The notes under the pieces were generated by a model. The model searched no databases. It was not told where the DNA came from and saw only the letters and a list, made by a program, of their open reading frames with translations. From Alphaproteobacteria bacterium (GTDB lineage Bacteria > Pseudomonadota > Alphaproteobacteria > CAAHEQ01 > UBA3637), in assembly GCA_045605805.1 (NCBI GenBank), contig JAZUQR010000026.1, positions 6,101-70,100 of the forward strand: a stretch of 64,000 nt of DNA. Direction: 5' to 3'. The position numbers and the translations under genes are program-made. Below, in pieces: positions 5,233-50,529 of the stretch; position 1 is the stretch's first letter, and each line of letters opens with the position of its first letter.

Positions 5233-7596
5233 TTAGCGTTGGCGCCCCTTAAATGTGAGAAGAAGATGCTCGGTCTCTTGCAGCTCAGTCAATTGGTCCT
5301 GAAGCGTTATCGGGCCTCCATTTTTAAGTTGCTCAAACTTCTTAGAAGCTTTTTCAAAACGGTCATTCAATAATTGCTGTTCAGGGATCAGTACACCTTT
5401 TTTAGCAGAATACCATTTGCCATCCTTTTGGGTAAAAGTTCTTATGTTTCCGCTGTTTAGTTGCATTGTAATTGACTTATTCTTAAGATCATAGGAACAA
5501 AACCCTTCACTCTTATTTTCTTTGCTGTCATAGCTAAAAGTAATGGTTTTGCTTTTCAAATCCACCTCAGTAGTAAAGGTTGTCTGCTCCCTCTCTTTCT
5601 GCATTGTGATAAGATTTTCTGCCTCGTTCTCCGTTTCATCGGCAATACCTTTACCGGATTTCCGTTCTGCTCCCAAAAGAGTCAAAGCCTGTAAAGCCTC
5701 GGCCGGCATAATTTTTGTTTCGGACAAAAGCTTAAACATATCTGCATTTTTGGCGTCAGCCAACATATCCGCCAAATAGTCATTCATTTGCTTGCCAAGA
5801 TCAGGATATTGCGCCTGTAAATCCGCCAATTTATCCATCCCTTTGAAATTGGGGTCGTTCCAAATGGCTTCCAATTTTTCGGCAAAATCCCTCATTTCAG
5901 GATGTTGTTTGGAATCTCGGTACAGACTCTTCAAATACATCTGTTGAAATTGCAATATAGCAGCGGCCGAATTCATCAACCCCAATACATGGGCATCTTG
6001 TGGGGCAAGTTGCGCATTGCCCTTCATCAAGGCTTCCAAACTGACACCGGCGTTTAATGCCTGTTGCAGGTCATAACCACCAATCATAATGTTTGCACCG
6101 TTTTGGTTGCCAAAGTTAAGATTGCTGCCAATCACAGGGCCATAGATATTGATAACAGTGCCGTTTCCGCCATTACCGCCATTTCCACCATTTCCACCAT
6201 TACCGCCATTGGGATTATTCTCATCTGATGGGTTATTACCAGCGTTATTATGAAACGGCTCTTTTGAATCCCACTTACCCCATTTATCTTCACTCAAACG
6301 CAGGTTGCGATTTTTAACCCATTCATCAAAGTTTGCCATCATAGTGGCCAGATTTTGCAAAGGCATCAACAAAAGGCCTTCACAAAAAGTAGCACCCATA
6401 TCCAATGGATCTGCCTTGGATAAAACATTCTTTTGATAAGAATCCCAAGTTTTTTCCCAACTTTTGGCAACAACATCGTTCAAGAAAGAATCCAACCCCA
6501 CATAATTGGAAGAAGATTTGGCAGGGGAAGCATTTTTTGTTAAAGCGTTTTTCAACGCATCAGAATGTTCGGGTTTAAGTTTTAAGCCAACAATTGTATC
6601 ACCATCTTTGTCAACAATATTGTCAGCAGTCACACCGCCACCAATGGTACCAACGATGTCTTTGACGATTTTGTCTTTCAAGCTATCAGGGAGGTCTTTC
6701 AAACTAAACTTTGTTTCGCCAGAATCCCAACCTTTATAATTATTTTTGTCTTTGTGTTTGTTGTATAAAGGAACAGCCCCCTCCAACCCCTTTTCCGCCA
6801 AGTCGTTGACAATAGGTTGCAGTTGTGTTTTCAACGCTTTAGGCGCTTCGGCAAGATTGTTGGTTCTTCTTTTAATGGCAGACAGTGCCTCATTCAAAGC
6901 GTCTTTTGCAGTCGTATCGCCATCTTGAAAAGCCTGAATACGGTTTGTATCGGTCAATATCTCCATCATCTTTTTCAGATCAATATCTTTATCGGACGTT
7001 TCAGGAGAATCGGATTCACGGTCATTAGAAGGTTCAGACTCGGCGGCCTCGTTATAAGCGGTTTGTAATTTCTTAAAGGCCTCCGACATCAAGCTCAAAT
7101 CTGTATTGCCTTCGTTTTTATACTCCTCCAAAGTTTTAGTTTCCCCAATACTTTTCATAATATCGTCCCAAACCTTTTGCACTAAAAGTGGGGGCAGATT
7201 GTCTATATTATCAAACCCTTCCAAAAGGTAATAGTCGTCAGGGTCTCCTGGTATTTGTTTAAATTTGCTCAAATCTTTATGTTTTGTGTAATGTTTAAGA
7301 GCCTCAGGAAAACGTTCGCCAAAATCTTGTTCGGCAATTTTATGAATTATTTCTAAGGCCTGATCCTTTTCGTCCGAGGGCTCTGCGTCGTTAACTTTTT
7401 GTGCCAAAAGTTTAATAGCTGTGTTATAAGAAGTTTTTAGAGCATCATCATCAGAGTTTAGTGCATCGACAGAGTTATCTCTAAGATAATCTGTCAAGTC
7501 ATCATCAGAGTTTAGCACATTGTTAAAGTTATCATTAAGATAATCTGTCAATTCTGCAATGCTGTCTTCCTCTAATTTGTTTGGACCAAGAGTCAT
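5233..7596 (-). CDS. Large hypothetical protein (787 aa) with N-terminal 'LTDYL.DN' duplications and a (GGN)n repeat; no signal peptide
   Basis: Long ORF with a strong consensus promoter upstream. Confidence 0.55.
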   Translation of the reverse strand: MTLGPNKLEEDSIAELTDYLNDNFNNVLNSDDDLTDYLRDNSVDALNSDDDALKTSYNTAIKLLAQKVNDAEPSDEKDQALEIIHKIAEQDFGERFPEALKHYTKHKDLSKFKQIPGDPDDYYLLEGFDNIDNLPPLLVQKVWDDIMKSIGETKTLEEYKNEGNTDLSLMSEAFKKLQTAYNEAAESEPSNDRESDSPETSDKDIDLKKMMEILTDTNRIQAFQDGDTTAKDALNEALSAIKRRTNNLAEAPKALKTQLQPIVNDLAEKGLEGAVPLYNKHKDKNNYKGWDSGETKFSLKDLPDSLKDKIVKDIVGTIGGGVTADNIVDKDGDTIVGLKLKPEHSDALKNALTKNASPAKSSSNYVGLDSFLNDVVAKSWEKTWDSYQKNVLSKADPLDMGATFCEGLLLMPLQNLATMMANFDEWVKNRNLRLSEDKWGKWDSKEPFHNNAGNNPSDENNPNGGNGGNGGNGGNGGNGTVINIYGPVIGSNLNFGNQNGANIMIGGYDLQQALNAGVSLEALMKGNAQLAPQDAHVLGLMNSAAAILQFQQMYLKSLYRDSKQHPEMRDFAEKLEAIWNDPNFKGMDKLADLQAQYPDLGKQMNDYLADMLADAKNADMFKLLSETKIMPAEALQALTLLGAERKSGKGIADETENEAENLITMQKEREQTTFTTEVDLKSKTITFSYDSKENKSEGFCSYDLKNKSITMQLNSGNIRTFTQKDGKWYSAKKGVLIPEQQLLNDRFEKASKKFEQLKNGGPITLQDQLTELQETEHLLLTFKGRQR

Positions 7597-7632
7597 AGGT
7601 TTCCTCCTTAAAAACAGTTATTTCTACTAACA

Positions 7633-7670
7633 ATTATACCATGCTTTAAGGTGATGTCAACAAAATAATG
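7633..7670 (-). promoter_or_regulatory. Sigma70-like promoter for the 787-aa gene (TTGACA-16-TATAAT on minus strand)
   Basis: Reverse complement reads ttgacatcaccttaaagcatggtataat ~40 nt upstream of RBS aaggagg. Confidence 0.5.
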
Positions 7671-7690
7671 CATAAAAAAATAAAAAATGT

Positions 7691-7719
7691 TGATTTTTGA
7701 AAAAAAGATTGGTAAGCTG
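7691..7719 (+). promoter_or_regulatory. Putative divergent promoter (TTGATT-17-TAAGCT) for the plus-strand membrane-protein operon
   Basis: -35/-10-like hexamers with 17-nt spacer upstream of RBS aagggggt and ATG at 7748. Confidence 0.35.
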
Positions 7720-7747
7720 AAAAAAAGTTGTAAAACAAGGGGGTTTT

Positions 7748-9553
7748 ATGAAGAAAAAACAATGGATGCTTCTTTGCTTTTTGGGAATCTTATTTTTTGC
7801 AAAAACGGCCTGTGCGGCAATTGTATATAAAGCAACATTGGCTGCCTATAATGCCATAGATAACGGCTGTTGGTTTTGTGGTGTTTTTGGAACCCTGTTT
7901 GATGTTATGAATGATATCACAACCAATATGTGTGAAGATATGCAAGGCACATTTTTGATGTTACTTGGTTTGTTTATGTTGTTTTGGTTGGCGATGCGGG
8001 TGGGTAAAGTCGTGTTGGATATTTCTCCCAATCCAGACACTTCTTTTGTGCCGGATTTGCTCAAACAAATACTGAAAGTCACAGCGGCTTCCTTGTTGAT
8101 TTCTGGATATATTTATGTGTTTCATAATGTCATAGGTCCTGCTTTGGAATTGAGTATTGGTGTTGGGAATCGGATAATGATGATGCAAGACCCTGGAACA
8201 ATTGTTGAGGCCAGTCGGACAAGTGCCCAAGGGACTGTAGCAAGCACAGAAAAGAGTATCTGTCAGGAGTTACATGATGCAATGGAAGAGGCAAAAAGTC
8301 AAAACGACACCGAAGGAGACAAGGCCTTTTCAAAGGTGACCAAAGAGGCCTTCTTGTGCTATATCAGAACGGCCAGTGCCGCTATGATAAACGGCATGGC
8401 GTTGGGCATAACGGCAGCACTGTCGTGGTATGAGATGAATTTTTGGAATAAATTTACTCATTTTGACATAATACTTGTGGGTACAACCCTATATTGGTGT
8501 TTCTTTATGCTCTTTGTTTACTTTCCAGTGCAGTTGTTTGACCCATTATTAAACCTTGTTTTTGTGTCAGCTATGTACCCATTGTGGATGGTTTTGGCTG
8601 TTTTTAATTCGACAAAAGGCTATGCAAATAAAGCCAAAGATCTGTTTTTAAGCGTGTTGGTTCATTTGATTGTTATTTCTATTATAGGGATGTTGGCTAT
8701 TCAAGTAATGGGTTTTGCCTTGGGAACAGCTGCTGAACGTCATCAGATAGAGCAAGCATTGCTAAATGGTGCTTCTGCTGGCACAGTGTTTTCCAATATG
8801 GTAAATCAAAGAATATGGGTCGTGTTGGCTTTGGGAATTATGGCGTTCAACTTGATGAAACAAGCTCCCAAAATTGCCTCTAACTTCCAAGCAGGTGTCA
8901 GTATGGGTGGAAATGACGCCATGGGTCGTATAACAGGCAGTGCTTTGAAGCTAAGCACAAATGCGGCGGCAAGTGGGATATCTGCCGGTGCGCATGCGGT
9001 GCAAGGTGGTGTGTCAAGAATGGCTCAACGAAACGATGGGTTGGGACGAGTGGGGCGCAATCTGCAACGGGCAGGCGATGCAGCAACGGCCGCTGTCTCC
9101 ACAGGCTTAGCTATAAGTACATTCGGTATGCTTGGCACTTCCAGTGCAGCCACCTCTATAAGAAGATTGGCCAAAGGGCGATCACCTTTTTTGGATGGTA
9201 AAGAGATGAAGAATAGTAAAGGTGAGACCTACACATTTAACAGCAAAAAGAATATCATGGGCAAAAAGGATGCCCAGGGGAATGCGTATAAAATTGATAA
9301 TAATACCGGGGTATATGAATCACAGGATAAATACGGTAAAACGCTTGGAAAATATGATTCAAAACATCAAGAGGTCTCTTTGGATGGAAGGAATTATAAA
9401 ATTGTCGGGGGCACAGTGAAGACAATGGATGATAAAGCTGTGGGTAGCAGTATTGCTAACCGTGTGTTGCAATTCCAAAAAGAAGCTGAGGCTAACATAA
9501 ATCATGTGAATAGAGTATACGGTGCGCTGAAAAAAAAGGGAAAAATTAAATGA
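7748..9553 (+). CDS. Polytopic membrane protein with signal peptide and N-terminal CWFC motif (paralog 1 of 3)
   Basis: Signal peptide 'MKKKQWMLLCFLGILFFAKTACA', 'NGCWFCGVFGTLF' motif, many TM helices. Stop overlaps next start. Confidence 0.6.
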   Translation: MKKKQWMLLCFLGILFFAKTACAAIVYKATLAAYNAIDNGCWFCGVFGTLFDVMNDITTNMCEDMQGTFLMLLGLFMLFWLAMRVGKVVLDISPNPDTSFVPDLLKQILKVTAASLLISGYIYVFHNVIGPALELSIGVGNRIMMMQDPGTIVEASRTSAQGTVASTEKSICQELHDAMEEAKSQNDTEGDKAFSKVTKEAFLCYIRTASAAMINGMALGITAALSWYEMNFWNKFTHFDIILVGTTLYWCFFMLFVYFPVQLFDPLLNLVFVSAMYPLWMVLAVFNSTKGYANKAKDLFLSVLVHLIVISIIGMLAIQVMGFALGTAAERHQIEQALLNGASAGTVFSNMVNQRIWVVLALGIMAFNLMKQAPKIASNFQAGVSMGGNDAMGRITGSALKLSTNAAASGISAGAHAVQGGVSRMAQRNDGLGRVGRNLQRAGDAATAAVSTGLAISTFGMLGTSSAATSIRRLAKGRSPFLDGKEMKNSKGETYTFNSKKNIMGKKDAQGNAYKIDNNTGVYESQDKYGKTLGKYDSKHQEVSLDGRNYKIVGGTVKTMDDKAVGSSIANRVLQFQKEAEANINHVNRVYGALKKKGKIK

Positions 9554-10893
9554 AACAAATAACAAAAAACATTTTAACAATTGTTTTTTTGATACTTGTT
9601 TGTGTGGCACTTTCAGCATGTGAAGCACCCAAGTTTGACCCAAACGATGGAAGTGCTACAATTAAAAATTGCTGGACCTGTGCGATTTATGGCTCTGTTT
9701 TTAATTTTATCAATTCAGTTGTGAAGGACTCTGTTTCAACTTCACTGTCTGTTGCTCAATTCTTGTTGGGTGCAGGGTTGTTGTTGTTTTTGCTGAAACA
9801 AGTGGGGTCAATCATGATTTTTGCAAGTGAAGCAGACATGCAAAAAACCATGAAAGAAACGGGTTATACGATTTTGAAAGCCATGATAATCTCATTCATC
9901 ATTTACCGACAAGATTGGTTTATGCAAACAATCAAGGATGTGCTGATTTATCCAATTGGCAGTTTTATAATGATGATGGGCAATGCTGTTTTAGACAGTA
10001 TTCCAGAGAGCAGTTCCTATTTTAGCGGGGTTCAAGGCTTGTCAAAAGACGGTACAAGTTTGATAGAAATAGGGGGAAAATTAGTCCCATTTGATGAAAC
10101 AGCAAGCCTTTTTGGTGATATTGGGATTCAGGTTCAATATATAGTAGCTCGGCTTTTTGCTTCGTTCAAAGGTGGCTTTGATTTGGGAAAACGGATCATT
10201 CAAGAAGGGGATATATATGCTTGGGCAGTTGGCTTGTTCTTTATGTGGGAAGTGGCCGATATAATGTTTATTTTTCCATTTGCTTTTGTGGACGCATTCC
10301 TCATCTTGGTTCTTTATGTGACGCTGTTTCCCATTGCGTTGGCACTGTGGGTGTTTCCACAAACAAAGAAATATTTTTCAAAAGTTTTTCCCGCCCCGTT
10401 TATAAGCCCCTTTTTGGATATATTGTTTGGCATAATTATTGTGACGCTGATGATGAGCATGGCTCAAATCTATGGTGATGTGGGCTTAGGGAATCTGATG
10501 AGTGGAGAAGCACAAGTAAATCGTTCGGATATTGCAGAAGGGGCTGCCAATGGTAAGCCGAATGTAATTATCATGCTTTTGTTAATTATGTGTGTCAAAA
10601 AAATGGCATTGAATATTTCGGATTTCAGTGCTCAATTCGGGGGTGAAGCTGCCCCTGCTGGTCTGTTTGCAACATTAAAGAAAGTACAAGATACAGTGAA
10701 AAAAATCGTGGCCCAAGTTGCCTTGGCATTTGCTACCGGTGGTGGCAGTTTGGCCGCAACTGTGGCAAAAGAAGCCTCTAAAGAAGCAGCAAAACAAGCA
10801 ATGGCCGCCGCCGCTGAATCCATGAGTAAAGCGGCCCCCAAAAAGGAATTGAAAGATGAAGAGGCCGAAAAACCAAAACCGGAGGGCGCATGA
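9550..10893 (+). CDS. Polytopic membrane protein with CWTC motif (paralog 2 of 3)
   Basis: ATGA overlap with upstream gene. 'KNCWTCAIYGSVF' motif. Ala/Lys-rich C-terminal tail. Confidence 0.6.
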   Translation: MKQITKNILTIVFLILVCVALSACEAPKFDPNDGSATIKNCWTCAIYGSVFNFINSVVKDSVSTSLSVAQFLLGAGLLLFLLKQVGSIMIFASEADMQKTMKETGYTILKAMIISFIIYRQDWFMQTIKDVLIYPIGSFIMMMGNAVLDSIPESSSYFSGVQGLSKDGTSLIEIGGKLVPFDETASLFGDIGIQVQYIVARLFASFKGGFDLGKRIIQEGDIYAWAVGLFFMWEVADIMFIFPFAFVDAFLILVLYVTLFPIALALWVFPQTKKYFSKVFPAPFISPFLDILFGIIIVTLMMSMAQIYGDVGLGNLMSGEAQVNRSDIAEGAANGKPNVIIMLLLIMCVKKMALNISDFSAQFGGEAAPAGLFATLKKVQDTVKKIVAQVALAFATGGGSLAATVAKEASKEAAKQAMAAAAESMSKAAPKKELKDEEAEKPKPEGA

Positions 10894-13256
10894 AGAAAAT
10901 AAAATATCTATTGAATCGCCTGTGTTTTGTTGGAGCTGCATTGTTTGGAATATGGGGGTGTTCTTTTCTGCCAACAACATTGTTGTCAGAAATGGGAAAA
11001 GTGTTTTGGGTACTCTCTGGTTTTGTGTTGGCCGTCTTTTGTGTGCTATGCCTAAAACGATATAAGAAAACAGCCATGACGCTTGTGGTGTGTTTTTTAT
11101 GTGGGTCGGCCCAAGCCCAATTTGAAGATAGGTGTGCGGTTGTAATGCAATCTTCGGTGGAAGAGGGAAATTGGTGTCTGTATGAAGGAATGATACAAAA
11201 GTTTGGCAGTCAGACTTGTTCGTTTATGAAGAGTTTTAATCCGACTAAAGTCAGGAAACGCCAAAGAGACAGAGAAGAAATGATGGAGCGGATTGCCAAT
11301 GCCGATGGGATTTTGGATGCCTATAATGCATTAGATGAAGGAAGAAAAAACGCACTGGCCTTAAATTGTCAAAGATTGACCCCAGAAGAAACAGAGTTAC
11401 CTGTTCAAAAAAAAGTCGATAAGTTAAAAAATGCAACGCATCCTGTTTGTTGTGCCGAAAATCTTCAATCATTGTACCAGATATATAACAGCCAATTTTC
11501 CAGCCGAGATATTGAAACTTTGCCAACGATGTTGATGGATGAAAAAAATCAATGCTGGGTGTGTGATGTGGTGTATATTTTAATCAATCTGGCCAATACA
11601 ATGGCATACCGAGCCGCCCCGCAAATGGCCGTTGTGGGTTTGTTCTTTTTGAAGTGGGCCTTTGTGTTTTGGTTGGTGTTAAAAATCGGCATGTTGTTTA
11701 TGAATAGAAACATCAATGGAAAACCATACAGCGGAGGTACTTTTTTCCAAGAATTACTCATCCGCTTGCTGTGTGTAGGCTTGGCAGCCATTGTGATTAC
11801 GGATACAGCCCAAAAAGTAAATGATTCACCAACCAGTGCTGTGACTGATGTTGAAAAAGGAACCATGTTGGATGAAGCATATAGCAAGTTGTTGAATCCG
11901 CCGTTGGAGTTGATTGCCGAAGTTGGTATCAACATTTCCGATAACCTACGCAAGGGCGAAGGCACATTTTTTGGTATGGTTGCAGAAAGGGTTAAACAAT
12001 CACCGAATTACGGTTTTGACTTAAATACAAGTGATTATTGTAAAACCAGTTTTGATATAAAACGTTCCTCTTTGCAACAGAAATTGACAAGTCCAACCAG
12101 CAAAGCAAAAGAGGTGATGGATGGGATCTATACAGGGCGTGTCATAGGCGAAGATTTAACAAAAAAAATGTTATGTTTAACACAACAGGCGTTTCGTGGG
12201 GTGTCACCTCTTGCCACACTGGGATCGTTGTTTTTGACGGATGGCATCAAAAATGGTGAATCGTTGCCACTTGGGATGGGAAGACTGCCAAAGTTAGCCC
12301 AATGTATTTATGGTTTAGTAATGATGCTTTGTTGTTGGTCGCTGGGAATATCTGTGGCCTTCCGATTGATAGATATCACCATACGCCTGTCAATTTTTAT
12401 TTTGTTGGCACCAATTTTAATCGCTTTGGCGGTGTTTCCAATTACCCGTGATAAAGCAAAAGCTGGCGTAAGATTTATGGTAAGTGCAATCATGGGCTTC
12501 ATAGAAATTTCCATAGGTGTCGCCCTTGTCATTCCATTCTTCATGGGTGCCATAGCACGCACTGAGGCACAAAAAGAGGCCTTGCTTGATGCGATGGTGG
12601 CACCGTCCAGTTCCAAATATGTATCCAATTTGTATGATATTTTTTCAAGTGGCGGGTTTATCACATTTGTGTTGGTCAGTTCTATCTGTTGGATGGGTAA
12701 GTTTTTGTTAGATGCCTCACAAAAGTTCTTTAATCATATTTTTGGCACACAAAATGTGGGACAAATGGGTGGTGCCTCAATGGCAGGGGTTGCTGCGGAT
12801 ATGCGTGGTGCAATTGGGGGTGTGGCTGATTGGACAAAAACCGACCGTGCCAAAATGATTGGGGCGGCCGCCAAAAATACCAAAGTAGGACGTGGTATGA
12901 CCAAAATGCAACAGGGGATTAAAAACTCGGCTGCCGGAGCAAAAAGATATGTGCAAGGTAAGGCTTCGCAAGCCTCAAATTATGTAAAGAACAGCAAGGT
13001 TGGTCGAGCCGCTTCGGCCGCAAAAAATGGCGTAAAAAATGTGGGACAAAAGGTGGCCAATTCAAAGGTTGGACAAGCCGCAAAAACCCTTGCCAATTCA
13101 AAGGTTGGACGTTTTGCAAAGGGCACAGGCAAAGTGGCAGGAGGTGTCTTAAAAGGGGTTGGCTCTATGGGTAAAGAAATGTTGCAACGAAGTGGAAAAT
13201 TTGTTAAAGATCAAGCCAAAAAAGGCGTACATGACTTCTTCCATCCCAAAGAATAA
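10890..13256 (+). CDS. Polytopic membrane protein with CWVC motif and C-terminal KNSKVG tandem repeats (paralog 3 of 3)
   Basis: ATGA overlap. 'NQCWVCDVVYIL' motif. Repetitive Lys/Gly-rich C-terminus. Confidence 0.6.
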   Translation: MKKIKYLLNRLCFVGAALFGIWGCSFLPTTLLSEMGKVFWVLSGFVLAVFCVLCLKRYKKTAMTLVVCFLCGSAQAQFEDRCAVVMQSSVEEGNWCLYEGMIQKFGSQTCSFMKSFNPTKVRKRQRDREEMMERIANADGILDAYNALDEGRKNALALNCQRLTPEETELPVQKKVDKLKNATHPVCCAENLQSLYQIYNSQFSSRDIETLPTMLMDEKNQCWVCDVVYILINLANTMAYRAAPQMAVVGLFFLKWAFVFWLVLKIGMLFMNRNINGKPYSGGTFFQELLIRLLCVGLAAIVITDTAQKVNDSPTSAVTDVEKGTMLDEAYSKLLNPPLELIAEVGINISDNLRKGEGTFFGMVAERVKQSPNYGFDLNTSDYCKTSFDIKRSSLQQKLTSPTSKAKEVMDGIYTGRVIGEDLTKKMLCLTQQAFRGVSPLATLGSLFLTDGIKNGESLPLGMGRLPKLAQCIYGLVMMLCCWSLGISVAFRLIDITIRLSIFILLAPILIALAVFPITRDKAKAGVRFMVSAIMGFIEISIGVALVIPFFMGAIARTEAQKEALLDAMVAPSSSKYVSNLYDIFSSGGFITFVLVSSICWMGKFLLDASQKFFNHIFGTQNVGQMGGASMAGVAADMRGAIGGVADWTKTDRAKMIGAAAKNTKVGRGMTKMQQGIKNSAAGAKRYVQGKASQASNYVKNSKVGRAASAAKNGVKNVGQKVANSKVGQAAKTLANSKVGRFAKGTGKVAGGVLKGVGSMGKEMLQRSGKFVKDQAKKGVHDFFHPKE
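12985..13115 (+). repeat. Degenerate ~39-bp tandem coding repeat (KNSKVG peptide repeats)
   Basis: 'gccaattcaaaggttggac' occurs twice 39 bp apart, with further degenerate copies upstream. Confidence 0.5.
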
Positions 13257-13346
13257 GATTTTTGTCTAAAAAAAACATTTTTTTTCATTTTGTCTATTTT
13301 CATATTTGTTTTTTTGGTGTATAGTATCCCAAAAAGGAGAGGAACG

Positions 13347-14333
13347 ATGGAAGAAATTGTGTTTCCCAATCAAATCAGAATGATGCGTCGTGTGTCTGGT
13401 AAATCTATGCAAGATGTGGCCGACTTGTTGAATTTAAGCATTTCTGCGGTCAGCAAAATTGAAAAAGGATACCGCCGCCTAAACGAAGCTCAGCTGAAAC
13501 AGATTGCGGCTTTTGTGGATTGCCCTGTTGGTTCATTGTTTGTGGCCGAAGGATCGGCGCAACCGGAAGTGATTCAAGCATGGAAAGAAGAACAAGGGCG
13601 TCGCCATAAAATGAACGAGGGGGGCGGCTTAAAAACTTTGGGGGCAGGTTTGCGTTATCTGCGTGGCCAAAGAAAAATCACATTGTCTGCGTTGGCCAAA
13701 GGGGCCAATATGACCTTGTCTGTCTATCACCGTATAGAAATGGGTCAACGGGAAGTGGATGAAGCTGCCTTTGAAGCAATTGCTCGTGCTTTGGGGATGA
13801 CAGCCTCAGATTTACAAAAGCGCATCTATGATTTGGATATGTCCGGAGCTTTGGAGGATTTGAAAAATAATGAATCACGCACAGGCATCAATCTGTTCAA
13901 GGGGGGATACAATGATTTGCCGATAAGTCGCTTGATGCTAAGGCGTGCTGAAGATCAAGAAGTGACAGTGCCGATTGAAGCATTTCCGGCGCAGGATGGA
14001 AAAATATATCGGGATAAAACACATTCTGTGGGGGCTGTGGTTTGTCCATCCACTTTGGCGAATGACCCAGGGCTGTATGCCATTCGTTTGGGGTCACGAG
14101 AATCGTTTGCAGGTGTGTTGCCGCCAAGTTCTGTGTTAGTTGTTTCACCAACAATGCCTCTGCGTGATAGTGATTTGGCAATTTTCTTGAAAGAGGAAAA
14201 TGAAATTGAAGTTGTGCGTGTGCATAAAACCGAAGGGCAAGAGGTGCAACTGTTCAGCTTTGCCACCGGACAAACATACACCGAAATAACTATGAAGAAC
14301 TTGCAAAAAGTTGTTTGGATTGCAATGTTGTAA
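13347..14333 (+). CDS. Dual-HTH XRE-family DNA-binding protein with C-terminal ~150-aa domain
   Basis: Two HTH_XRE-like segments ('MQDVADLLNLSISAVSKIEKG', 'LSALAKGANMTLSVYHRIEMG'). RBS aaaggagag before MEEIVF start. Confidence 0.65.
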   Translation: MEEIVFPNQIRMMRRVSGKSMQDVADLLNLSISAVSKIEKGYRRLNEAQLKQIAAFVDCPVGSLFVAEGSAQPEVIQAWKEEQGRRHKMNEGGGLKTLGAGLRYLRGQRKITLSALAKGANMTLSVYHRIEMGQREVDEAAFEAIARALGMTASDLQKRIYDLDMSGALEDLKNNESRTGINLFKGGYNDLPISRLMLRRAEDQEVTVPIEAFPAQDGKIYRDKTHSVGAVVCPSTLANDPGLYAIRLGSRESFAGVLPPSSVLVVSPTMPLRDSDLAIFLKEENEIEVVRVHKTEGQEVQLFSFATGQTYTEITMKNLQKVVWIAML

Positions 14334-14342
14334 AGGGGAAGC

Positions 14343-14927
14343 ATGATTGATAAACAAACAGAAGTCCAAAATCAATTTCATTCTTTTTTGAAACAAAAGA
14401 ACGCTAAAACAAATGTGGCTATGCAAGAAGCCCAAAGGCTTGTCAATTTATATCGTGTGTTGAATGAATTGGGCGGAGATTTTGTGGATACCTATAATAT
14501 AATGCTTCAAAATGCATCCAGTGAAGCCAAATCCTCTTTGAATGCATTAGTGGGCGGGCAGGAAGTGCGTCAGTACCTTGAGTTTTTGATGGAAAAAAAT
14601 CATATCAAGGAAGAACAAGAAGAAGGTACAGCAAAACAAGTGGGATGGTTGCCGTCCCCCGAACAAGAAAGAAATTCACCCCAAAACCAAAACGGATATG
14701 CTGTGTCGCCTGAACAATGGGAACAATTTGTGGCACAGCAAGAACAAAAGTGGGCGCAAATGGTGGCCGATTTGAAAGAAGAACATAAACAAGAATTAAA
14801 TCGTTTGATGAACCAATTTTCTGTGGCCTTGCAAACCAAACAAACGCCGGCACAAGCCTATACGCCTCCGCCACCGGCTGGGCAACAGCTAGAACCATCT
14901 TATTCCGAAATTATTGAAGAAAAATAA
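14343..14927 (+). CDS. Hypothetical Gln/Glu-rich coiled-coil protein
   Basis: ORF in operon context, 9 nt after previous stop. Confidence 0.45.
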   Translation: MIDKQTEVQNQFHSFLKQKNAKTNVAMQEAQRLVNLYRVLNELGGDFVDTYNIMLQNASSEAKSSLNALVGGQEVRQYLEFLMEKNHIKEEQEEGTAKQVGWLPSPEQERNSPQNQNGYAVSPEQWEQFVAQQEQKWAQMVADLKEEHKQELNRLMNQFSVALQTKQTPAQAYTPPPPAGQQLEPSYSEIIEEK

Positions 14928-14936
14928 GGAGACAAA

Positions 14937-16226
14937 ATGAATATAGAACGCATTTCTTCTGCTTTACAAACCTATAACGGGCAAGAAGATTCTATGCACG
15001 CCGTGGTGGATGTCCTTCAAGAAGAATTGGGTGAAAACTGGACAGATGTGGTTTTTGAACAGTTGCAACAATTATCCCCTGCCTTAAAGGATAATTTAAC
15101 CCATGCCTATAATTATTATGCCGCCACAATTGCGTGGAATGAAACGCAAAACTATTTGATGGATGAGACACTTCAAAAAACGCCCGATTTGGAAGAAAGA
15201 TTGCCGATTTTGAAACATTGGCTGGATTTTTTCGGTGCGCCAGGACAAAGTGCTTATCAGGAATTGGAAAATAAGCTGAATGCTTTGCCGACAGGGGATG
15301 AAGGAACGGATGATGAAGAAGTTCAAATGCCAGAAGCAGAGGTAATTCCTGAAGAAGAAATCGCCCTGCAAGAAAGTGGGGAAACGCAAACAGAAGAAGA
15401 AATAAACGAATCCTTTGAAGAAGAGGAAAACGAAGTTGATGAATGGATGAACTCTGATCAACCAACGGGGGATTCGGCTGAATCCGAAGAAGAGTTAGAA
15501 GATGTGGCAGATAAGCAAGAACAAGATGAATCGGAAGCAGACGAAACAGAGGAAGCGGATACGGAAGAAGAAAAGCTAGAAATAGAAGAGACCCCTGCCG
15601 TTTTTGAAATTAAAAAACTGCAAAAACAGTTGAATTTGCTAAACCAAAATCAAGCATGGCTTTCGGCCCGTTGTATCCAACTGAAAGGTATTGAAGTCTA
15701 TGCATATCCCTTCTATGGTTTTATTGTTGACCTGTTGCGTCAAACTTTGAAAAGTATGGAAAAAATTGAAAAAGATGAAGAAATGACTGCTTTGTTGCCG
15801 TCTGTGTTTGAAGGGGGAAAAGAAGCCTTTGACAATAAGAAGCAAGCCATTGAACATGATATTGAATTGGCCGAACAAAACTGTGAATCGGCTACCACCG
15901 CATTGATTTCTGATGAAACAGATATGGACGAGGTAAGGCGGACATTGGGGGCTATTGATACAAGTGATACAGTGGAATATGTTGGGCCTGCTCCTGATGG
16001 TTTTGAGTTATTAGATGATGAAGCCCCGCTGGACGAAAGTGTCATCAAACAGCAATATGAAAAATTGGAAAAGATAAATGCTTTAACAGGACAAACCGAT
16101 CAAAAAGCAAATGAAAATAAAATAATTCAAGAAAACACTTCACAAAATGAAGAAAAAGGTGTACAACAAAGAAAATTATCTTTTTCGTTGAAACGGACAA
16201 AACCAACTGAGGAAGGTAGTAATTAA
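14937..16226 (+). CDS. Hypothetical highly acidic protein (Glu/Asp-rich central region)
   Basis: ORF in operon. Low-complexity acidic stretch. Confidence 0.45.
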   Translation: MNIERISSALQTYNGQEDSMHAVVDVLQEELGENWTDVVFEQLQQLSPALKDNLTHAYNYYAATIAWNETQNYLMDETLQKTPDLEERLPILKHWLDFFGAPGQSAYQELENKLNALPTGDEGTDDEEVQMPEAEVIPEEEIALQESGETQTEEEINESFEEEENEVDEWMNSDQPTGDSAESEEELEDVADKQEQDESEADETEEADTEEEKLEIEETPAVFEIKKLQKQLNLLNQNQAWLSARCIQLKGIEVYAYPFYGFIVDLLRQTLKSMEKIEKDEEMTALLPSVFEGGKEAFDNKKQAIEHDIELAEQNCESATTALISDETDMDEVRRTLGAIDTSDTVEYVGPAPDGFELLDDEAPLDESVIKQQYEKLEKINALTGQTDQKANENKIIQENTSQNEEKGVQQRKLSFSLKRTKPTEEGSN

Positions 16227-16242
16227 ACAAAAGAGGGGACTT

Positions 16243-17388
16243 ATGAAAAAAAAAGGTGTTTGGTTTGGTTTGATAATGGCTTTTATGTGGGCAAGTGCCG
16301 TATTTGCAAATGCAGATATCCAAAAAGTTTCACCTGTGGCACTGGTTGATTTTGAAATGCCGTTTCGGTGTACAACCACACAATCTGATCAAGCCGTGTC
16401 GCAAACAATTGCTTTAACATTGGATGATTTTGCGTTCCAATCGCTTCAAGCAGGGAATGCTTTGCCACGGTTTGCTGTGAACGATTACACATTCAAAGAA
16501 CAACCCTTGGATAAAGTGTTGGCTAAGTTGGTTGAATCGGCAGGCATAAAGGTCATGGCTCCCAAAACAGAAATGATGTTGCTGACAGCAAAAAATGTCA
16601 ATGGCGATTTGGCCTCTGTGGTGCAACAATTGACGGATGCAGGAGAAATGTTTTATAACTATAAAGAGGCTTCCAAAACCTTAACCCTGTTGCGGCGTGC
16701 GGATTTTGCTTTGCAAGTACCAAAAAACAAAGCCATCTTGATGTCTGTTTTAGATGCGTTAAGAGGTCAAGAGATTCAAAATATATCGGTTGATTTTGAA
16801 AAATATAAAATTCGTATGAATGTAAGCCCCGAAGAATTGAAGCAGGCAAAAAAGGTTGTGCGCAAGATTTTAGACGATGCCTATTTGCTGGCCGCAGATA
16901 TAAAAATATATGAGCTTTTTTTGCCCTATGCGATAGAAGGTCAATGGAATACCATAATGCATAAAGCACTGCCAATGATTGCCACAACAAAAAATGCCTT
17001 AACAGGGCGGGCCATGATTTTGAAAAATCATAAAAATTCAGACGATATTGTCCAAATAGTCAAGCAGTTTTATCAAGTTCAGCCTCTGGTCAGCGGACAA
17101 TCTGTTGTGCCAAATGGATGGCAAATGCGGTTTAATATCAATGAATGTACAACAACGCCGTTGCCTTATGACAACATGAGCCTGTTGATGAAAACACGCA
17201 TTCATAACGAAATGGATGAGCGCACCCAAATCACTATCGCTTCTGGAAATGAAGTGTTAACAACCTTTGATATTACCAGCAATTTGAATCAAGAAGTTGT
17301 TTTGTTGGGAATGCGTCAGCCAAATAACAAAGAACTTTTAATTACAGTCAAGTTTAATTTAATACGCTTATCACAGAAAGGAGAATAA
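16243..17388 (+). CDS. Periplasmic protein with STN/secretin-N-like domains but no obvious C-terminal secretin beta-barrel
   Basis: Signal peptide. 'FKEQPLDKVLAKLVESAGIKVMA' resembles secretin/TonB N-terminal (STN) domain. 'ADIKIYELF' and 'EVVLLGMRQPNNKELLITVKFNLI' are secretin-like. Confidence 0.45.
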   Translation: MKKKGVWFGLIMAFMWASAVFANADIQKVSPVALVDFEMPFRCTTTQSDQAVSQTIALTLDDFAFQSLQAGNALPRFAVNDYTFKEQPLDKVLAKLVESAGIKVMAPKTEMMLLTAKNVNGDLASVVQQLTDAGEMFYNYKEASKTLTLLRRADFALQVPKNKAILMSVLDALRGQEIQNISVDFEKYKIRMNVSPEELKQAKKVVRKILDDAYLLAADIKIYELFLPYAIEGQWNTIMHKALPMIATTKNALTGRAMILKNHKNSDDIVQIVKQFYQVQPLVSGQSVVPNGWQMRFNINECTTTPLPYDNMSLLMKTRIHNEMDERTQITIASGNEVLTTFDITSNLNQEVVLLGMRQPNNKELLITVKFNLIRLSQKGE

Positions 17389-17389
17389 A

Positions 17390-17980
17390 ATGACGGATTT
17401 CAAAGCACCGCCACCACCACAAGGATTTGCACCGGAACCACAGGTGCGTCCAGAAGCCATCACACCAACACAGCCCACCCCTGTGGCTCAGGAACAGGTT
17501 CAGCCTGTGGCTGATACTAAAACGAATACAATGTCTTCGCAAGCAGGTTTGTCGTCACAGCAGATTCAAGGTAAAGTGGCCGACCTAAAAAATAAGTATG
17601 ATGCTTTGCCATCTCAGAAAAAAAACATTATTCTTTGCGTGGCAACCTTTGTGTTGGGCATTGTGATGGGCTGTGTGATGTTTGGTGGGGCAGAATCAGT
17701 CACACAAGCCCCAACAGGTCTGCAAGGAGTTATTGGCAATTCCGATATACGACCGGACCAAAAACTGAAAAGATGTGGTCAGTCAGAAGCCTCTTCGGCT
17801 TGCGTATTGTATGTGATGAATTATTATACATACGAAAAATCGGCAGCCGATTTCTTTGAATTGGCAGCTTCCTTAACGGGACGCAGTATAAGTTCAATCA
17901 GAACGGATAATGTACGATACGCTTCTATGAAAATCCCACCGGGGTATTTTGTGCAAATCAAAGTGCCACGCTATCAATAA
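17390..17980 (+). CDS. Hypothetical bitopic membrane protein with Pro-rich N-terminus
   Basis: Start overlaps previous stop (TAAAATG). Single TM 'IILCVATFVLGIVMGCVMFGG'. Confidence 0.5.
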   Translation: MTDFKAPPPPQGFAPEPQVRPEAITPTQPTPVAQEQVQPVADTKTNTMSSQAGLSSQQIQGKVADLKNKYDALPSQKKNIILCVATFVLGIVMGCVMFGGAESVTQAPTGLQGVIGNSDIRPDQKLKRCGQSEASSACVLYVMNYYTYEKSAADFFELAASLTGRSISSIRTDNVRYASMKIPPGYFVQIKVPRYQ

Positions 17981-17983
17981 AAA

Positions 17984-18009
17984 AATCCCCGATGTTAAAG
18001 TCGGGGATT
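17984..18009. terminator. Bidirectional rho-independent terminator between convergent genes
   Basis: Hairpin tccccga-N8-tcgggga flanked by A-run and T-run. Confidence 0.55.
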
Positions 18010-18426
18010 TGTCCATGTGAAACATAAAGCATCAAAACTGCCCCCTTTTTCGTGATAATAATTCGGCCGTACACCGGTTTGAATAAAACCATGCTTTTTG
18101 TATAATTGAATGGCTGGTTCGTTGGTGGCCCGTACTTCCAAAAAAATATGGTGTTTGGATTGGTCAAAGGCCATTTGTTGAAGCTGTTCTAAAAGACGGG
18201 AAGCCACCCCATTGCGGCGTCTGTTAGGATGCACGGCCAAAGTCAAAATCTCTAAATCCAGACCCAAATCGGCACAAAGCACAAAGCCAAACGCATCCCC
18301 AAAGCCAAAAGTGGTGGGTAAATCCAAAATCTTGCGAAAGTTATCCTCACTCCAAGGTTCGTCAAAACATAAAGCATGAAGTTTGGCAAGTGGCTCGGCA
18401 AAAAAAGATTCCTTAAAGTGTGACAT
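17995..18426 (-). CDS. rimI: Ribosomal-protein-alanine N-acetyltransferase (GNAT)
   Basis: GNAT motif 'RRNGVASRLLEQL'. Directly downstream of tsaB as in many bacteria. Confidence 0.65.
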   Translation of the reverse strand: MSHFKESFFAEPLAKLHALCFDEPWSEDNFRKILDLPTTFGFGDAFGFVLCADLGLDLEILTLAVHPNRRRNGVASRLLEQLQQMAFDQSKHHIFLEVRATNEPAIQLYKKHGFIQTGVRPNYYHEKGGSFDALCFTWTNPRL

Positions 18427-41983: not shown

Positions 41984-42440
41984 TTTTCTCCAAATAATCT
42001 AAAAACGCTTGGCAACCTTCATAAATATCCCAATAGGTTTCATCAAAGTTGCCAGTGTACCAAGGGTCTTTAACTGGTCGAGGATTTTGGGTGAAGTCCA
42101 ACAGACGATGCACTTTATGGTCTTTATCCTCGCCAACGATATCCAAAATATCCCGCACATTGTTATCGTCCATCGCCAAAATATAGTCAAATTTATCATA
42201 GTCGGACTTGCGAATTTGACGCGAGTAGTGTTGGGTGAAAGGGACTTTCATCTGCCGAAGCATATCCGCCGCTCGGTAATCCAGCGCCTCATGCACCATT
42301 TCGTTATACCCCTCTGTCGCGGCAGAGACAATTTCAAACTTGTCCGCTACACCTTTCTCAGCGACCATTTGCTTCATCACAAATTCCGCCATTGGCGACC
42401 GACAAATATTTCCAAGACATACGAATAGAACTTTAATCAT
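41970..42440 (-). CDS. Low-molecular-weight protein-tyrosine phosphatase / ArsC-like
   Basis: 'VLFVCLGNICRSPMAE' CX5R P-loop and 'DPWY' motif. TAATG overlap with hsdR stop. Confidence 0.8.
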   Translation of the reverse strand: MIKVLFVCLGNICRSPMAEFVMKQMVAEKGVADKFEIVSAATEGYNEMVHEALDYRAADMLRQMKVPFTQHYSRQIRKSDYDKFDYILAMDDNNVRDILDIVGEDKDHKVHRLLDFTQNPRPVKDPWYTGNFDETYWDIYEGCQAFLDYLEKNDLH

Positions 42441-46808: not shown

Positions 46809-46810
46809 AT

Positions 46811-48022: not shown

Positions 48023-48032
48023 CAAATATTCC

Positions 48033-50425: not shown

Positions 50426-50529
50426 TTTGGACCTCTTTTCGTTTAGAATCATAATATCGTAAATTCTAGCCGATTTTTTCTGAAAAGGCAATCAGAAATA
50501 TAAGGTCTGTTGTATTTAATTATGGTGCT

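What the first reader, a model, noticed from the sequence alone, without database searches (positions are those of the whole stretch)
5233..17980. Divergently promoted locus with three tandem CWxC membrane-protein paralogs, a secretin-N-like protein and effector-like proteins
A consensus promoter (TTGACA-16-TATAAT) drives a 787-aa protein with GGN repeats and no signal peptide, followed by a 410-aa membrane protein with a PSA-rich linker. Divergently, eight genes are packed with ATGA overlaps: three large paralogous polytopic membrane proteins (601, 447 and 788 aa) that each carry a C-W-x-C motif just after the signal or anchor region, then a dual-HTH XRE protein, two acidic or coiled-coil proteins, a periplasmic protein with STN/secretin-N-like domains but no beta-barrel, and a bitopic membrane protein. 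Tandem arrays of large multi-TM paralogs with variable C-terminal extensions are reminiscent of VirB6/TrbL-like arrays in intracellular bacteria. I cannot confirm that homology from sequence alone. The locus may be a secretion- or envelope-associated system that I cannot place in any known family.
Basis: partly seen in the sequence, partly recalled or inferred. Interest (0 to 1): 0.7.

Follow-up and report, generated by a model that had tools for sequence, protein, structure and literature searches.

The report
VirB6 array with a mini-secretin
This conserved chromosomal operon of uncultured gut Alphaproteobacteria combines three type IV secretion VirB6-like membrane proteins with a shrunken secretin homologue, a pairing not described for any secretion system, which suggests an unrecognised variant of the type IV secretion machine.

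Summary

- **VirB6/TrbL paralogues.** The three large membrane proteins belong to this family. The 788-aa protein passes the Pfam TrbL cut-off. The 601-aa protein gives a weak hit. A model of the 447-aa protein matches only TrwI/VirB6 of plasmid R388.
- **Mini-secretin.** The 381-aa "secretin-N-like" protein is a full but shortened secretin homologue. A profile-profile comparison with bona fide secretins gives 99.9% probability. Its secretin domain lacks about 90 residues.
- **Conservation.** The same order of these ten genes, between pgpA and rimI-tsaB, occurs in related Alphaproteobacteria MAGs from human, goat and rumen samples.
- **Core module.** A smaller module persists down to 26% identity. 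It comprises the XRE regulator, the 194-like and 429-like proteins, the mini-secretin and the 196-like protein. It usually lies next to a VirB6-like array.
- **T4SS link.** In five distant loci the module sits beside a giant VirB10/TrbI-like gene and a VirB11-like ATPase gene.
- **What is missing.** No locus protein has a Walker A motif, and the 64-kb window holds no VirB10 or VirB11 homologue (its ORFs also gave no VirB4 or VirD4 Pfam hit).

I read the locus as the structural core of a divergent, scattered type IV secretion-related machine that has a secretin-type outer component. Physical assembly into one machine is inferred, not shown. Verdict: new variant of a known kind; interest 0.72.

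The parts
3970..5202 (-). 410-aa membrane protein: 2 N-terminal TM segments, a P/S/A-rich linker, a conserved C-terminal domain and an acidic tail. Second gene of the divergent unit; belonging to the system is uncertain.
   Evidence: ORF and translation; TM prediction. 34-38% identical orthologues sit at the same position in L001, L003 and L004. A C-domain homologue occurs elsewhere in L025. No Pfam or NCBIfam hit.
5233..7596 (-). 787-aa acidic soluble protein with a GGN repeat. It diverges fast and is a candidate cargo or accessory protein (speculative).
   Evidence: Only about 190 residues align, at 29-32% identity, with the proteins at the same position in L001 and L003. L004 is detected only by phmmer, E 9e-8. 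No family hit.
7633..7660 (-). Consensus sigma-70 promoter TTGACA-16-TG-TATAAT for the 787/410 unit.
   Evidence: 12/12 match. The -35 element is conserved in relatives.
7688..7718 (+). Candidate promoter of the VirB6-like operon (TTGATT-17-TAAGCT).
   Evidence: This block is conserved in L001, L003 and L004. Function is inferred.
7748..9553 (+). VirB6/TrbL-like paralogue A (601 aa): signal peptide, CWFC at residue 41, about 5 hydrophobic helices, and a basic G/A/K-rich tail.
   Evidence: Pfam TrbL 17.6 bits, below the cut-off. Paralogous to the 788- and 447-aa proteins. TM prediction and motif.
9550..10893 (+). VirB6/TrbL-like paralogue B (447 aa): lipobox LSAC, CWTC at residue 41, about 6 hydrophobic helices. 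This is the minimal core form.
   Evidence: The AF2 model (pLDDT 56) has TrwI/VirB6 chains of R388 as its 7 best PDB matches (E 2.5e-4 to 1.7e-2, target-normalised TM 0.47-0.59). The next hit has E 0.4. Motif and TM prediction.
10890..13256 (+). VirB6/TrbL-like paralogue C (788 aa): N-terminal 2 TM segments plus a Cys-rich periplasmic extension, CWVC at residue 222, a TrbL core, and a basic K/G/A repeat tail.
   Evidence: Pfam TrbL 31.0 bits against a cut-off of 25.9, residues 457-568. Only 6 homologues in 5.8 billion clusters. Invariant cysteines.
13259..13325 (+). Promoter/operator of the XRE gene: direct repeat TTTTTGTCTA (13259, 13287) and TTTTCA-17-(TG)TATAGT.
   Evidence: The DNA is nearly invariant across L001-L004 although the flanking proteins have diverged. 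Promoter scan.
13347..14333 (+). XRE-family regulator (328 aa) with two HTH_3 domains and a C-terminal domain of about 140 aa with unknown fold. It is the most conserved protein of the locus.
   Evidence: Pfam HTH_3 E 9e-19, two stretches. 80-82% identical in L001-L004, against 55-71% for RimI and TsaB. Present in every related module.
14343..14927 (+). 194-aa acidic cytoplasmic protein. A conserved N-terminal helical domain of about 90 aa is followed by a variable acidic tail.
   Evidence: In distant loci the same N-domain heads acidic proteins of 270-670 aa. The 490-850-aa proteins at this position in other loci share the motif by eye only. No family or PDB hit.
14937..16226 (+). 429-aa very acidic protein (pI 4.05): N-domain, acidic linker, and a conserved C-domain (about residues 220-425).
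   Evidence: 57-62% identical in L001-L004. The C-domain exists alone as a protein of 171-196 aa in distant loci. No Pfam or PDB hit.
16243..17388 (+). Mini-secretin (381 aa): signal peptide, N0 and N1/N3-type domains, and a shortened secretin domain (about residues 215-381). Invariant Cys43 and Cys302.
17390..17980 (+). 196-aa bitopic inner-membrane protein: P/Q-rich cytoplasmic N-terminus, TM segment 80-98, and a periplasmic domain of about 90 aa with an invariant RCG...C pair. Always encoded directly after the mini-secretin.
   Evidence: No Pfam or PDB hit. Not TcpQ-like.
17983..18010 (.). Hairpin with T-runs between the convergent 196-aa gene and rimI. Probably a bidirectional terminator that ends the operon.
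   Evidence: 10-bp stem, 5 G-C pairs, followed by a T-run.

Best explanation
The plus-strand operon (7748-17980) encodes the conserved structural core of a very divergent type IV secretion-related envelope machine.

- **Inner part.** The three VirB6/TrbL paralogues would form the inner-membrane and periplasmic platform or stalk. This is by analogy with the TrwI/VirB6 pentamer of R388, possibly as distinct or mixed pentamers.
- **CWxC motif.** It sits at the periplasmic start of the first long helix. It is a lineage-specific addition, likely a disulfide or metal site.
- **Outer part.** The 381-aa protein is a miniaturised secretin. It would oligomerise into a periplasmic or outer-membrane ring.
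- **Link between membranes.** The 196-aa bitopic protein, always encoded next to the mini-secretin, would tie that ring to the inner membrane, as GspC or PilP do for N0 domains.
- **Cytoplasmic proteins.** The two acidic proteins (194 and 429 aa) are cytoplasmic accessory subunits of unknown role.
- **Regulator.** The dual-HTH XRE protein, with its own ultra-conserved promoter/operator, controls the set.
- **Energy source.** The energising ATPases and VirB10 are not in this locus. They are presumably encoded elsewhere in the genome, as in the scattered rvh system of Rickettsiales.
- **Divergent unit.** The 787/410 unit may encode cargo or accessory proteins.

Shown here: the homologies, the conserved synteny, and the adjacency to VirB10 and VirB11 in other lineages. 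Inferred: that these proteins assemble into one machine, their stoichiometry, their localisation, and the substrate.
For: **VirB6 identity**
- Pfam TrbL scores 31.0 bits on the 788-aa protein, above the 25.9 cut-off.
- TrbL hits also occur in array members of distant loci: L020, 29.2 bits, and L024, 20 bits.
- The three proteins share one architecture and invariant C-W-x-C, D and P positions.
- The model of the 447-aa protein matches only TrwI/VirB6.

**Secretin identity**
- An exhaustive profile search reaches true PF00263 secretins.
- hhalign gives 99% over the N-terminal half and 99.9% over the full length. The C-terminus alone gives 97.2%.

**One functional unit**
- The same gene order occurs in 4 genome or ENA loci at 31-41% VirB6 identity and in L039-L041.
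- The module XRE, 194, 429C, mini-secretin, 196 is kept down to 26% identity.
- In 18 of the 21 longer related loci (over 8 kb) with mapped hits, some of them duplicates of one organism, a VirB6-like array lies within the held flanks, even where the order is rearranged.

**T4SS link**
- A VirB10/TrbI-like gene (PF03743, E 1e-34; PDB ComB10 E 1.7e-18) and a VirB11-like ATPase gene (best PDB hit Brucella VirB11) lie directly beside the module.
- This adjacency is seen in L019 and L024 upstream, and in L021, L031 and L038 downstream on the other strand.

**Selection**
- The XRE protein is 80-82% identical and the 429-aa protein 57-62% identical, at or above RimI and TsaB.
Against: - No ATPase is present. 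No locus protein has a Walker A motif.
- No VirB10 or VirB11 homologue lies in the 64-kb window by tblastn, and Pfam scans of the window's larger ORFs gave no VirB4 or VirD4 hit.
- VirB4, the one universal T4SS ATPase, was not seen in any fetched locus.
- VirB2, VirB3, VirB5, VirB8 and VirB9 were not identified anywhere.
- The rest of this genome could not be searched.
- The mini-secretin fails the Pfam Secretin model. It lacks about 90 residues of the secretin domain, so it may not form an outer-membrane pore.
- The VirB6 fold match rests on a low-confidence model (pLDDT 56).
- In L012/L017 and L019 no VirB6-like gene lies within 10 kb of the module.
- A type IVb pilin lies next to the module in L019. 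This leaves a pilus-type origin open.
Confidence: 0.55

Rival explanations
1. The locus is a self-contained envelope structure that has become uncoupled from type IV secretion. The VirB6-derived membrane proteins and a gate-less secretin ring would form a passive conduit, an envelope tether or an adhesion apparatus that needs no dedicated ATPase.
For: No ATPase or Walker A motif in the locus. No T4SS core gene in 64 kb. In most related loci only the module and the VirB6-likes are linked, with housekeeping genes on both sides. The secretin domain lacks about 90 residues.
Against: VirB6 proteins are known only as T4SS parts (review PMC12857230). VirB10 and VirB11 genes adjoin the module in two different arrangements in five loci. 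Scattered T4SS genes have a precedent in Rickettsia (PMC2653234).
Confidence: 0.2
2. The module is basically a type IV pilus or type II secretion derivative centred on the secretin. The VirB6-likes would replace the PilC/GspF platform, and the pilins and ATPase would be encoded elsewhere.
For: The closest secretin relatives by fold and profile are pilus-type secretins: BfpB, PilQ, and MshL/PilN-like. A PilS/bundlin-type prepilin gene follows the module in L019. The neighbouring ATPase belongs to the T2SSE superfamily.
Against: That ATPase is 322 aa. Its best and only full-length match is VirB11, not PilB or BfpD. It sits next to a TrbI/VirB10 gene. No PilC/GspF, prepilin peptidase or pilin gene occurs in the window or in the other loci. 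The pilin adjacency is seen in one locus only.
Confidence: 0.12
3. The locus is a decaying remnant of an integrated conjugative element or filamentous prophage (pIV-like secretin plus XRE repressor) and has no present function.
Against: All ORFs are intact. The locus occupies the same chromosomal site between pgpA and rimI-tsaB across lineages with only 31-55% protein identity. The regulator and the 429-aa protein are as conserved as housekeeping proteins. No integrase, relaxase, Zot-like ATPase or coat genes are present. GC content equals that of the surroundings. No plasmid matches.
Confidence: 0.03

Closest known systems
Rickettsiales vir homologue (rvh) T4SS with proliferated VirB6 genes (Gillespie et al. 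2009, PMC2653234)
   Same: Both have several large 'extended' VirB6/TrbL paralogues, alike only in the TrbL core and with divergent flanking extensions. Rickettsia has five, of 674-1154 aa. Both are chromosomal and vertically inherited in Alphaproteobacteria. In rvh the T4SS genes are scattered in several 'islets'. The VirB10 of the distant relatives found here is closest to ComB10, and the paper notes ComB-like affinities for rvh.
   Different: The array here is not seen next to virB3-virB4. Instead it is co-operonic with an XRE regulator, two acidic proteins, a secretin homologue and a bitopic protein, none of which I know to be rvh components. The CWxC motif is, from memory of A. tumefaciens VirB6 and RP4 TrbL, not a general VirB6 feature; this was not tested. 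The hosts appear to be gut-lumen MAGs, not known intracellular bacteria.
TrwI/VirB6 of plasmid R388 (stalk complex; PDB 7o3v, 8rt9, 8rtd)
   Same: It is the only significant structural match of the 447-aa paralogue. The Pfam TrbL core is shared. According to the review PMC12857230, VirB6 forms a central pentamer that serves as platform for VirB5 and VirB2.
   Different: There are three paralogues instead of one. They carry signal peptide or lipoprotein N-termini, CWxC, long basic G/A/K-rich tails and (in the 788-aa protein) a Cys-rich N-domain. No VirB5 or VirB2 partner was identified. Sequence identity is about 15%.
Secretins of type IVb pili and type II secretion (BfpB, TcpC/PilN/MshL-like, GspD, PilQ), Pfam PF00263
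   Same: The homology is full length: N0 plus N1/N3 domains, the 'IxIYEV...W' entry into the secretin domain, and the terminal 'ELxIxxxPxxIR' strand. A signal peptide is present. The best fold hits are secretins.
   Different: The protein has 381 aa against 450-700. Three segments of about 25 residues in the secretin domain are missing. There is no Pfam hit. It has no S-domain or pilotin, and no GspE/F, PilB/C or pilin genes nearby. Instead it is co-operonic with VirB6-like genes.
DotD of the Legionella Dot/Icm type IVB system (Nakano et al. 2010, PMC2951367)
   Different: DotD is a small lipoprotein with the N0-like domain only. The protein here keeps N0, N1/N3 and a reduced secretin domain, and is detectably homologous to secretins by sequence profile.

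Membership tests
TrbL/VirB6 (Pfam PF04610) | Score above the Pfam gathering threshold | tested here: met
   The 788-aa protein scores 31.0 bits against 25.9. The 601-aa protein scores only 17.6 bits and the 447-aa protein has no hit, so those two are assigned through paralogy and fold.
TrbL/VirB6 (Pfam PF04610) | Polytopic protein with 5 or more hydrophobic helices | tested here: met
   5 to 8 hydrophobic segments by Kyte-Doolittle scan. All-helical model.
TrbL/VirB6 (Pfam PF04610) | VirB6 fold as in TrwI of R388 | tested here: met
   The top 7 PDB hits of the 447-aa model are TrwI chains, E 2.5e-4 to 1.7e-2, probability 1.00, target-normalised TM 0.47-0.59. The next hit has E 0.4. Caveat: model pLDDT is 56.
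TrbL/VirB6 (Pfam PF04610) | Encoded with other T4SS core genes (VirB4 and others) | tested here: not met
   None in the 64-kb window. VirB10 and VirB11 are adjacent only in the distant loci L019, L021, L024, L031 and L038. VirB4 was not seen anywhere.
Secretin (Pfam PF00263) | Match to the Pfam Secretin, Secretin_N or STN models | tested here: not met
   No such hit in any of 20 family members, even at E up to 10.
Secretin (Pfam PF00263) | Profile-level homology to bona fide secretins over the N-domains and the secretin domain | tested here: met
   hhalign 99%, E 2.7e-18, over residues 32-236. 99.9%, E 5.6e-34, over 370 columns. C-terminal residues 215-381 alone give 97.2%, E 4.3e-11. The targets were verified as PF00263 proteins.
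Secretin (Pfam PF00263) | Complete secretin domain (about 170-250 residues including the gate region) able to form the double-walled outer-membrane barrel | tested here: not met
   About 90 residues are missing, in three blocks of about 25 plus smaller gaps, relative to the aligned secretins. Multimerisation and membrane insertion cannot be tested here.
Secretin (Pfam PF00263) | Partnered with a GspE/PilB-type ATPase, a GspF/PilC platform and (pseudo)pilins | tested here: not met
   None in the window. One pilin gene lies next to the module, in L019 only.
Complete type IV secretion system | VirB4-family ATPase present in the genome | not testable with these tools
   Only 64 kb of the genome is available, and the collection scans are capped. 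VirB4 is absent from the window and from all fetched flanks.
Integrative conjugative element or plasmid T4SS | Relaxase, coupling protein, integrase; mobile context | tested here: not met
   None in the window. The chromosomal site between pgpA and rimI-tsaB is fixed in several lineages. tblastn of the 381- and 447-aa proteins against 72,556 plasmids found no match.
XRE/Cro-C1 HTH regulators (PF01381) | HTH_3 domain above threshold | tested here: met
   Two HTH_3 stretches, 67.7 bits against a cut-off of 23.

The most novel reading that the evidence does not exclude
A clade of uncultured gut and rumen Alphaproteobacteria builds a hybrid secretion machine. Its inner part would be type IV: a VirB6 paralogue stalk with VirB10 and VirB11. 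Its outer conduit would be a miniaturised, probably gate-less secretin anchored by a new bitopic partner. This would be the first T4SS that uses a secretin-family outer-membrane component. It would also have new cytoplasmic subunits (the 194 and 429 families) and a dedicated dual-HTH regulator.
Probability: 0.35. Interest if true: 0.85.

Novelty: new variant of a known kind. Interest (0 to 1): 0.72.

Why it matters
Secretins are regarded as the outer-membrane channels of type II and type III secretion, type IV pili and filamentous phage. T4SSs use VirB7, VirB9 and VirB10 instead. A 2025 nomenclature review of T4SS diversity does not mention secretins at all.

A conserved operon that joins VirB6 paralogues to a secretin homologue, and that is linked to VirB10 and VirB11 in sister lineages, would blur that division.

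- It would give a natural example of a minimal secretin.
- It would give an accessible model for why some Alphaproteobacteria, such as Rickettsiales, multiply VirB6.
- The carriers are common in gut samples: one related mini-secretin sequence was seen on 558 contigs. The system may therefore matter for how these uncultured gut bacteria interact with hosts or neighbours.
- Four of its protein families (194, 429, 196, and the regulator's C-domain) have no known relatives.

Tried and rejected
- **Exact look-up.** Looking up the 788-aa protein or its 100% identical cluster representative found no contig on record.
- **PDB sequence searches.** Profile searches against PDB sequences with the 381, 788, 196 and 429 families gave nothing significant.
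- **Pfam and NCBIfam.** They gave no credible hit for the 787, 410, 194, 429, 381 or 196 aa proteins. Weak hits such as PC4, CesT and SecD-TM1 were dismissed as chance.
- **VirB6-like core profile.** A profile of the VirB6-like core (A3) pulled in only same-clade proteins, so the link to TrbL rests on Pfam and fold.
- **TcpQ hypothesis.** The idea that the 196-aa periplasmic domain is TcpQ-like, prompted by a secretin-TcpQ fusion among the hits, was tested and rejected (hhalign probability 0.1%).
- **First metagenome scan.** The narrower alignment A6 worked.
- **Prepilin motif scan.** It found nothing in the window or the loci. The L019 pilin has an atypical G/RSMIE site.
- **Extra components.** ORFs downstream of the module in L028 and L037 were checked: ABC transporters, transketolase, GGDEF and unknowns, with no T4SS genes.
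- **Plasmid searches.** No match.
- **Literature searches.** Searches on RF32, gut Alphaproteobacteria with T4SS, and secretin with VirB6 found no description of this system.
- **Taxonomy.** I did not establish it beyond 'Alphaproteobacteria bacterium' in the MAG titles.

Full report
**1. Observation**

On the minus strand a 12/12 consensus promoter (TTGACA-16-TG-TATAAT, 7660-7633) precedes two genes. The first encodes a 787-aa acidic protein with a GGN run. The second encodes a 410-aa protein with two TM segments and a P/S/A-rich linker.

On the plus strand eight genes run from 7748 to 17980.
- The first three genes are joined by ATGA overlaps.
- The remaining junctions have gaps of 1-16 nt.
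- The exception is a 90-nt gap before the XRE gene. That gap holds its own promoter and a direct repeat.
- This DNA is almost invariant in relatives, so the regulator most likely starts at ATG 13347.
- A hairpin with T-runs at 17983-18010 closes the operon.

The surroundings are ordinary chromosome: pgpA, rimI, tsaB, tRNA-Thr, hisS, corA, priA, queA and others. GC content is the same as in the locus.

**2. The three membrane proteins are VirB6/TrbL paralogues**

- Pfam TrbL/VirB6 scores 31.0 bits on the 788-aa protein, above the cut-off of 25.9. It scores 17.6 bits on the 601-aa protein.
- The three proteins are weakly but significantly similar to each other.
- Together with their orthologues they share one architecture:
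  - a signal peptide or lipobox, or, in the 788-aa protein, a 220-residue extension with two TM segments and six invariant cysteines;
  - an invariant C-W-x-C;
  - a long hydrophobic helix;
  - a variable periplasmic insert;
  - three or four TM segments with invariant D and P;
  - a low-complexity tail, basic and G/A/K-rich in the 601- and 788-aa proteins.
- The 447-aa member has no Pfam hit. I modelled it with an alignment of all paralogues. The model is weak (pLDDT 56).
- Even so, its seven best PDB matches are all TrwI/VirB6 chains of the R388 T4SS (E 2.5e-4 to 1.7e-2, target-normalised TM 0.47-0.59). The next hit has E 0.4.
- C[WF]xC followed by a hydrophobic helix recurs in at least one array member in several more distant loci, though not in all of them.

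**3. The 381-aa protein is a miniaturised secretin**

- It has no Pfam hit.
- Its AlphaFold model (pLDDT 75.5) is matched best by secretins: BfpB E 1.4e-9, PilQ, GspD and InvG.
- An exhaustive profile search of 1.84 billion representatives found 104 proteins.
  - About 45 are full-length family members of 380-510 aa.
  - In the weak tail are longer proteins. Eight of these are genuine PF00263 secretins of generic MshL/PilN/GspD type.
- hhalign of the close family against these secretins gives 99% probability over residues 32-236. The alignment ends at the characteristic 'IxIYEV...W' entry into the secretin domain.
- With a more diverse profile the alignment becomes full length (99.9%, E 5.6e-34).
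- The C-terminal 167 residues alone align with the whole secretin domain (97.2%, E 4.3e-11). This includes the terminal 'ELxIxxxPxxIR' strand.
- Three blocks of about 25 residues are deleted.

A reduced secretin domain is retained. Whether it can still form a pore is unknown.

**4. The locus is a conserved unit**

Only six homologues of the 788-aa protein exist among 5.8 billion clusters. Each one that could be traced lies in the same arrangement: pgpA, the 410-like and 787-like genes, then divergently three VirB6-likes, XRE, 194, 429, 381 and 196, followed by rimI-tsaB (L001-L004, L039-L041). The titles of the genome records say 'Alphaproteobacteria bacterium' MAGs. One title names goat abomasum. 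A human-gut source for another, and for several metagenome loci, is inferred from the record names.

Conservation within the locus is uneven.

| Protein | Identity to relatives |
|---|---|
| XRE regulator | 80-82% |
| 429 aa | 57-62% |
| 381 aa | 49-53% |
| 194 aa | 44-55% |
| 196 aa | 45-54% |
| VirB6-likes | 31-41% |
| 410 aa | 34-38% |
| 787 aa | only a 190-residue patch aligns |
| RimI (for comparison) | 55-71% |
| TsaB (for comparison) | 55-61% |

A metagenome scan with the mini-secretin family returned 34 more loci from gut and rumen samples. Mapping them with phmmer and an HMM gave these results.
- The block XRE, 194-like, 429-C-domain, mini-secretin, 196-like persists down to 26% identity.
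- In 18 of the 21 longer loci (over 8 kb) with mapped hits, some of them duplicates of one organism, it lies beside an array of two to four VirB6-like genes. Some of these reach 1360 aa, and one is fused to a peptidase M23 domain.
- This holds even where the regulator is inverted and the array has moved to the other side (L020, L024).

**5. Link to type IV secretion**

- In L019 and L024 the genes directly upstream of the module are a beta-flower repeat protein, a giant TrbI/VirB10-like protein and a 322-aa ATPase.
  - The VirB10-like protein has 1827 or 1519 aa (PF03743 E about 1e-34). Its C-terminus is closest to ComB10 (E 1.7e-18), then TraF, CagY and TrwE.
  - The best PDB match of the ATPase, and its only match spanning most of the protein, is Brucella VirB11.
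- The same three genes lie downstream on the opposite strand in L021, L031 and L038. The linkage has therefore survived rearrangement.
- L019 also has a PilS/bundlin-type prepilin gene right after the module.
- In the present window there is no homologue of VirB10, VirB11 or that pilin.
- No locus protein has a Walker A motif.
- Every other larger window ORF that I scanned with Pfam and that gave a hit is housekeeping or belongs to a type I R-M island.

**6. Interpretation**

I think the operon encodes the structural core of a divergent T4SS-related machine.
- VirB6 paralogues would form the inner platform or stalk. In R388, VirB6 forms a central pentamer that carries VirB5 and recruits pilin (review PMC12857230).
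- A secretin-derived ring would sit on the outer side.
- The invariably adjacent 196-aa bitopic protein would be its inner-membrane link.
- The 194 and 429 families would be two new acidic cytoplasmic subunits.
- A dedicated regulator, probably autoregulated, would control the set.
- The ATPases and VirB10 would be encoded elsewhere. Rickettsia offers a precedent: its T4SS is split into five islets and has five extended VirB6 paralogues (PMC2653234).

The homologies and the gene linkage are shown. The assembly, the localisation, the role of CWxC and the substrate are inferred. The 787/410 unit is linked only in the nearer relatives. I treat 'effector' as a guess.

**7. Rivals**

1. A stand-alone structure without an ATPase, uncoupled from secretion. 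This fits the lack of T4SS genes in the window. It does not explain the recurrent VirB10/VirB11 adjacency.
2. A pilus or T2SS-type system built round the secretin. This fits the nearest secretin relatives and the one pilin gene. The ATPase and its neighbour are VirB11-like and VirB10-like, and no PilC/GspF occurs.
3. A dead mobile-element remnant. This is contradicted by intact genes, a fixed chromosomal site across deep divergence, strong conservation and the absence of plasmid matches.

**8. Novelty**

**9. Main limits**

- The rest of the genome could not be searched.
- VirB4 was never seen.
- The VirB6 model is of low confidence.
- Four protein families remain without any known relative.

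Noticed in passing
window 11-3100 (+): A single 1029-aa ORF, cut by the window start, joins the C-terminal half of an AcrB-type RND transporter (PF00873, residues 2-548) to an OEP/TolC-like outer-membrane factor (PF02321, from residue 618). It is either an unusual pump-channel fusion or a sequencing frameshift.
   Followed up: no
window 42440-50491 (-): A type I restriction-modification system: hsdR 42440-45487, hsdS 46811-48052, hsdM 48914-50491. It is interleaved with three ORFs that have no Pfam hit (45484-46338, 46335-46814, 48033-48917). GC content falls to 33-37% here, so this looks like an acquired defence island.
   Followed up: no
window 13259-13330: The non-coding DNA upstream of the XRE gene is almost identical in relatives whose housekeeping proteins are only 55-70% identical. 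It holds the direct repeat TTTTTGTCTA (13259, 13287) and a TTTTCA-17-TG-TATAGT promoter. It is probably an autoregulatory operator. It also explains why the TTG-extended ORF seemed conserved.
   Followed up: partly
L019 686-6169; L024 1503-6062; L021/L031/L038 about 13400-17980 (-): Giant VirB10/TrbI-like proteins (1519-1827 aa) whose N-terminal two thirds consist of beta-flower repeats (PF21785, PF21784). A separate beta-flower protein precedes them. The expansion recalls CagY of Helicobacter.
   Followed up: partly
L024 17573-20554 (+): A 993-aa VirB6-like protein carries a peptidase M23 domain (residues 455-562) ahead of its TrbL core. This would be a fusion of a cell-wall hydrolase to VirB6.
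   Followed up: no
L019 11840-12406 (+): A PilS/bundlin-type (type IVb) prepilin with an atypical G/RSMIEM cleavage site lies directly after the 196-like gene. It is seen in this one locus only.
   Followed up: partly
L028 7563-9248; L029 4757-6223: The 194-family proteins of these loci end in tandem 'WEYVDE(D/N)GNP(V/I)(D/N)P(S/D/R)E' repeats. In all distant loci the family combines a conserved 90-residue head with long, very acidic, variable tails.
   Followed up: no
L021 9839-11086 (protein P0152): This relative of the mini-secretin was recorded on 558 contigs. Another member of its cluster lies on a 1.89-Mb contig. The carrier organisms therefore appear common in sequenced gut samples and to have small genomes.
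   Followed up: no
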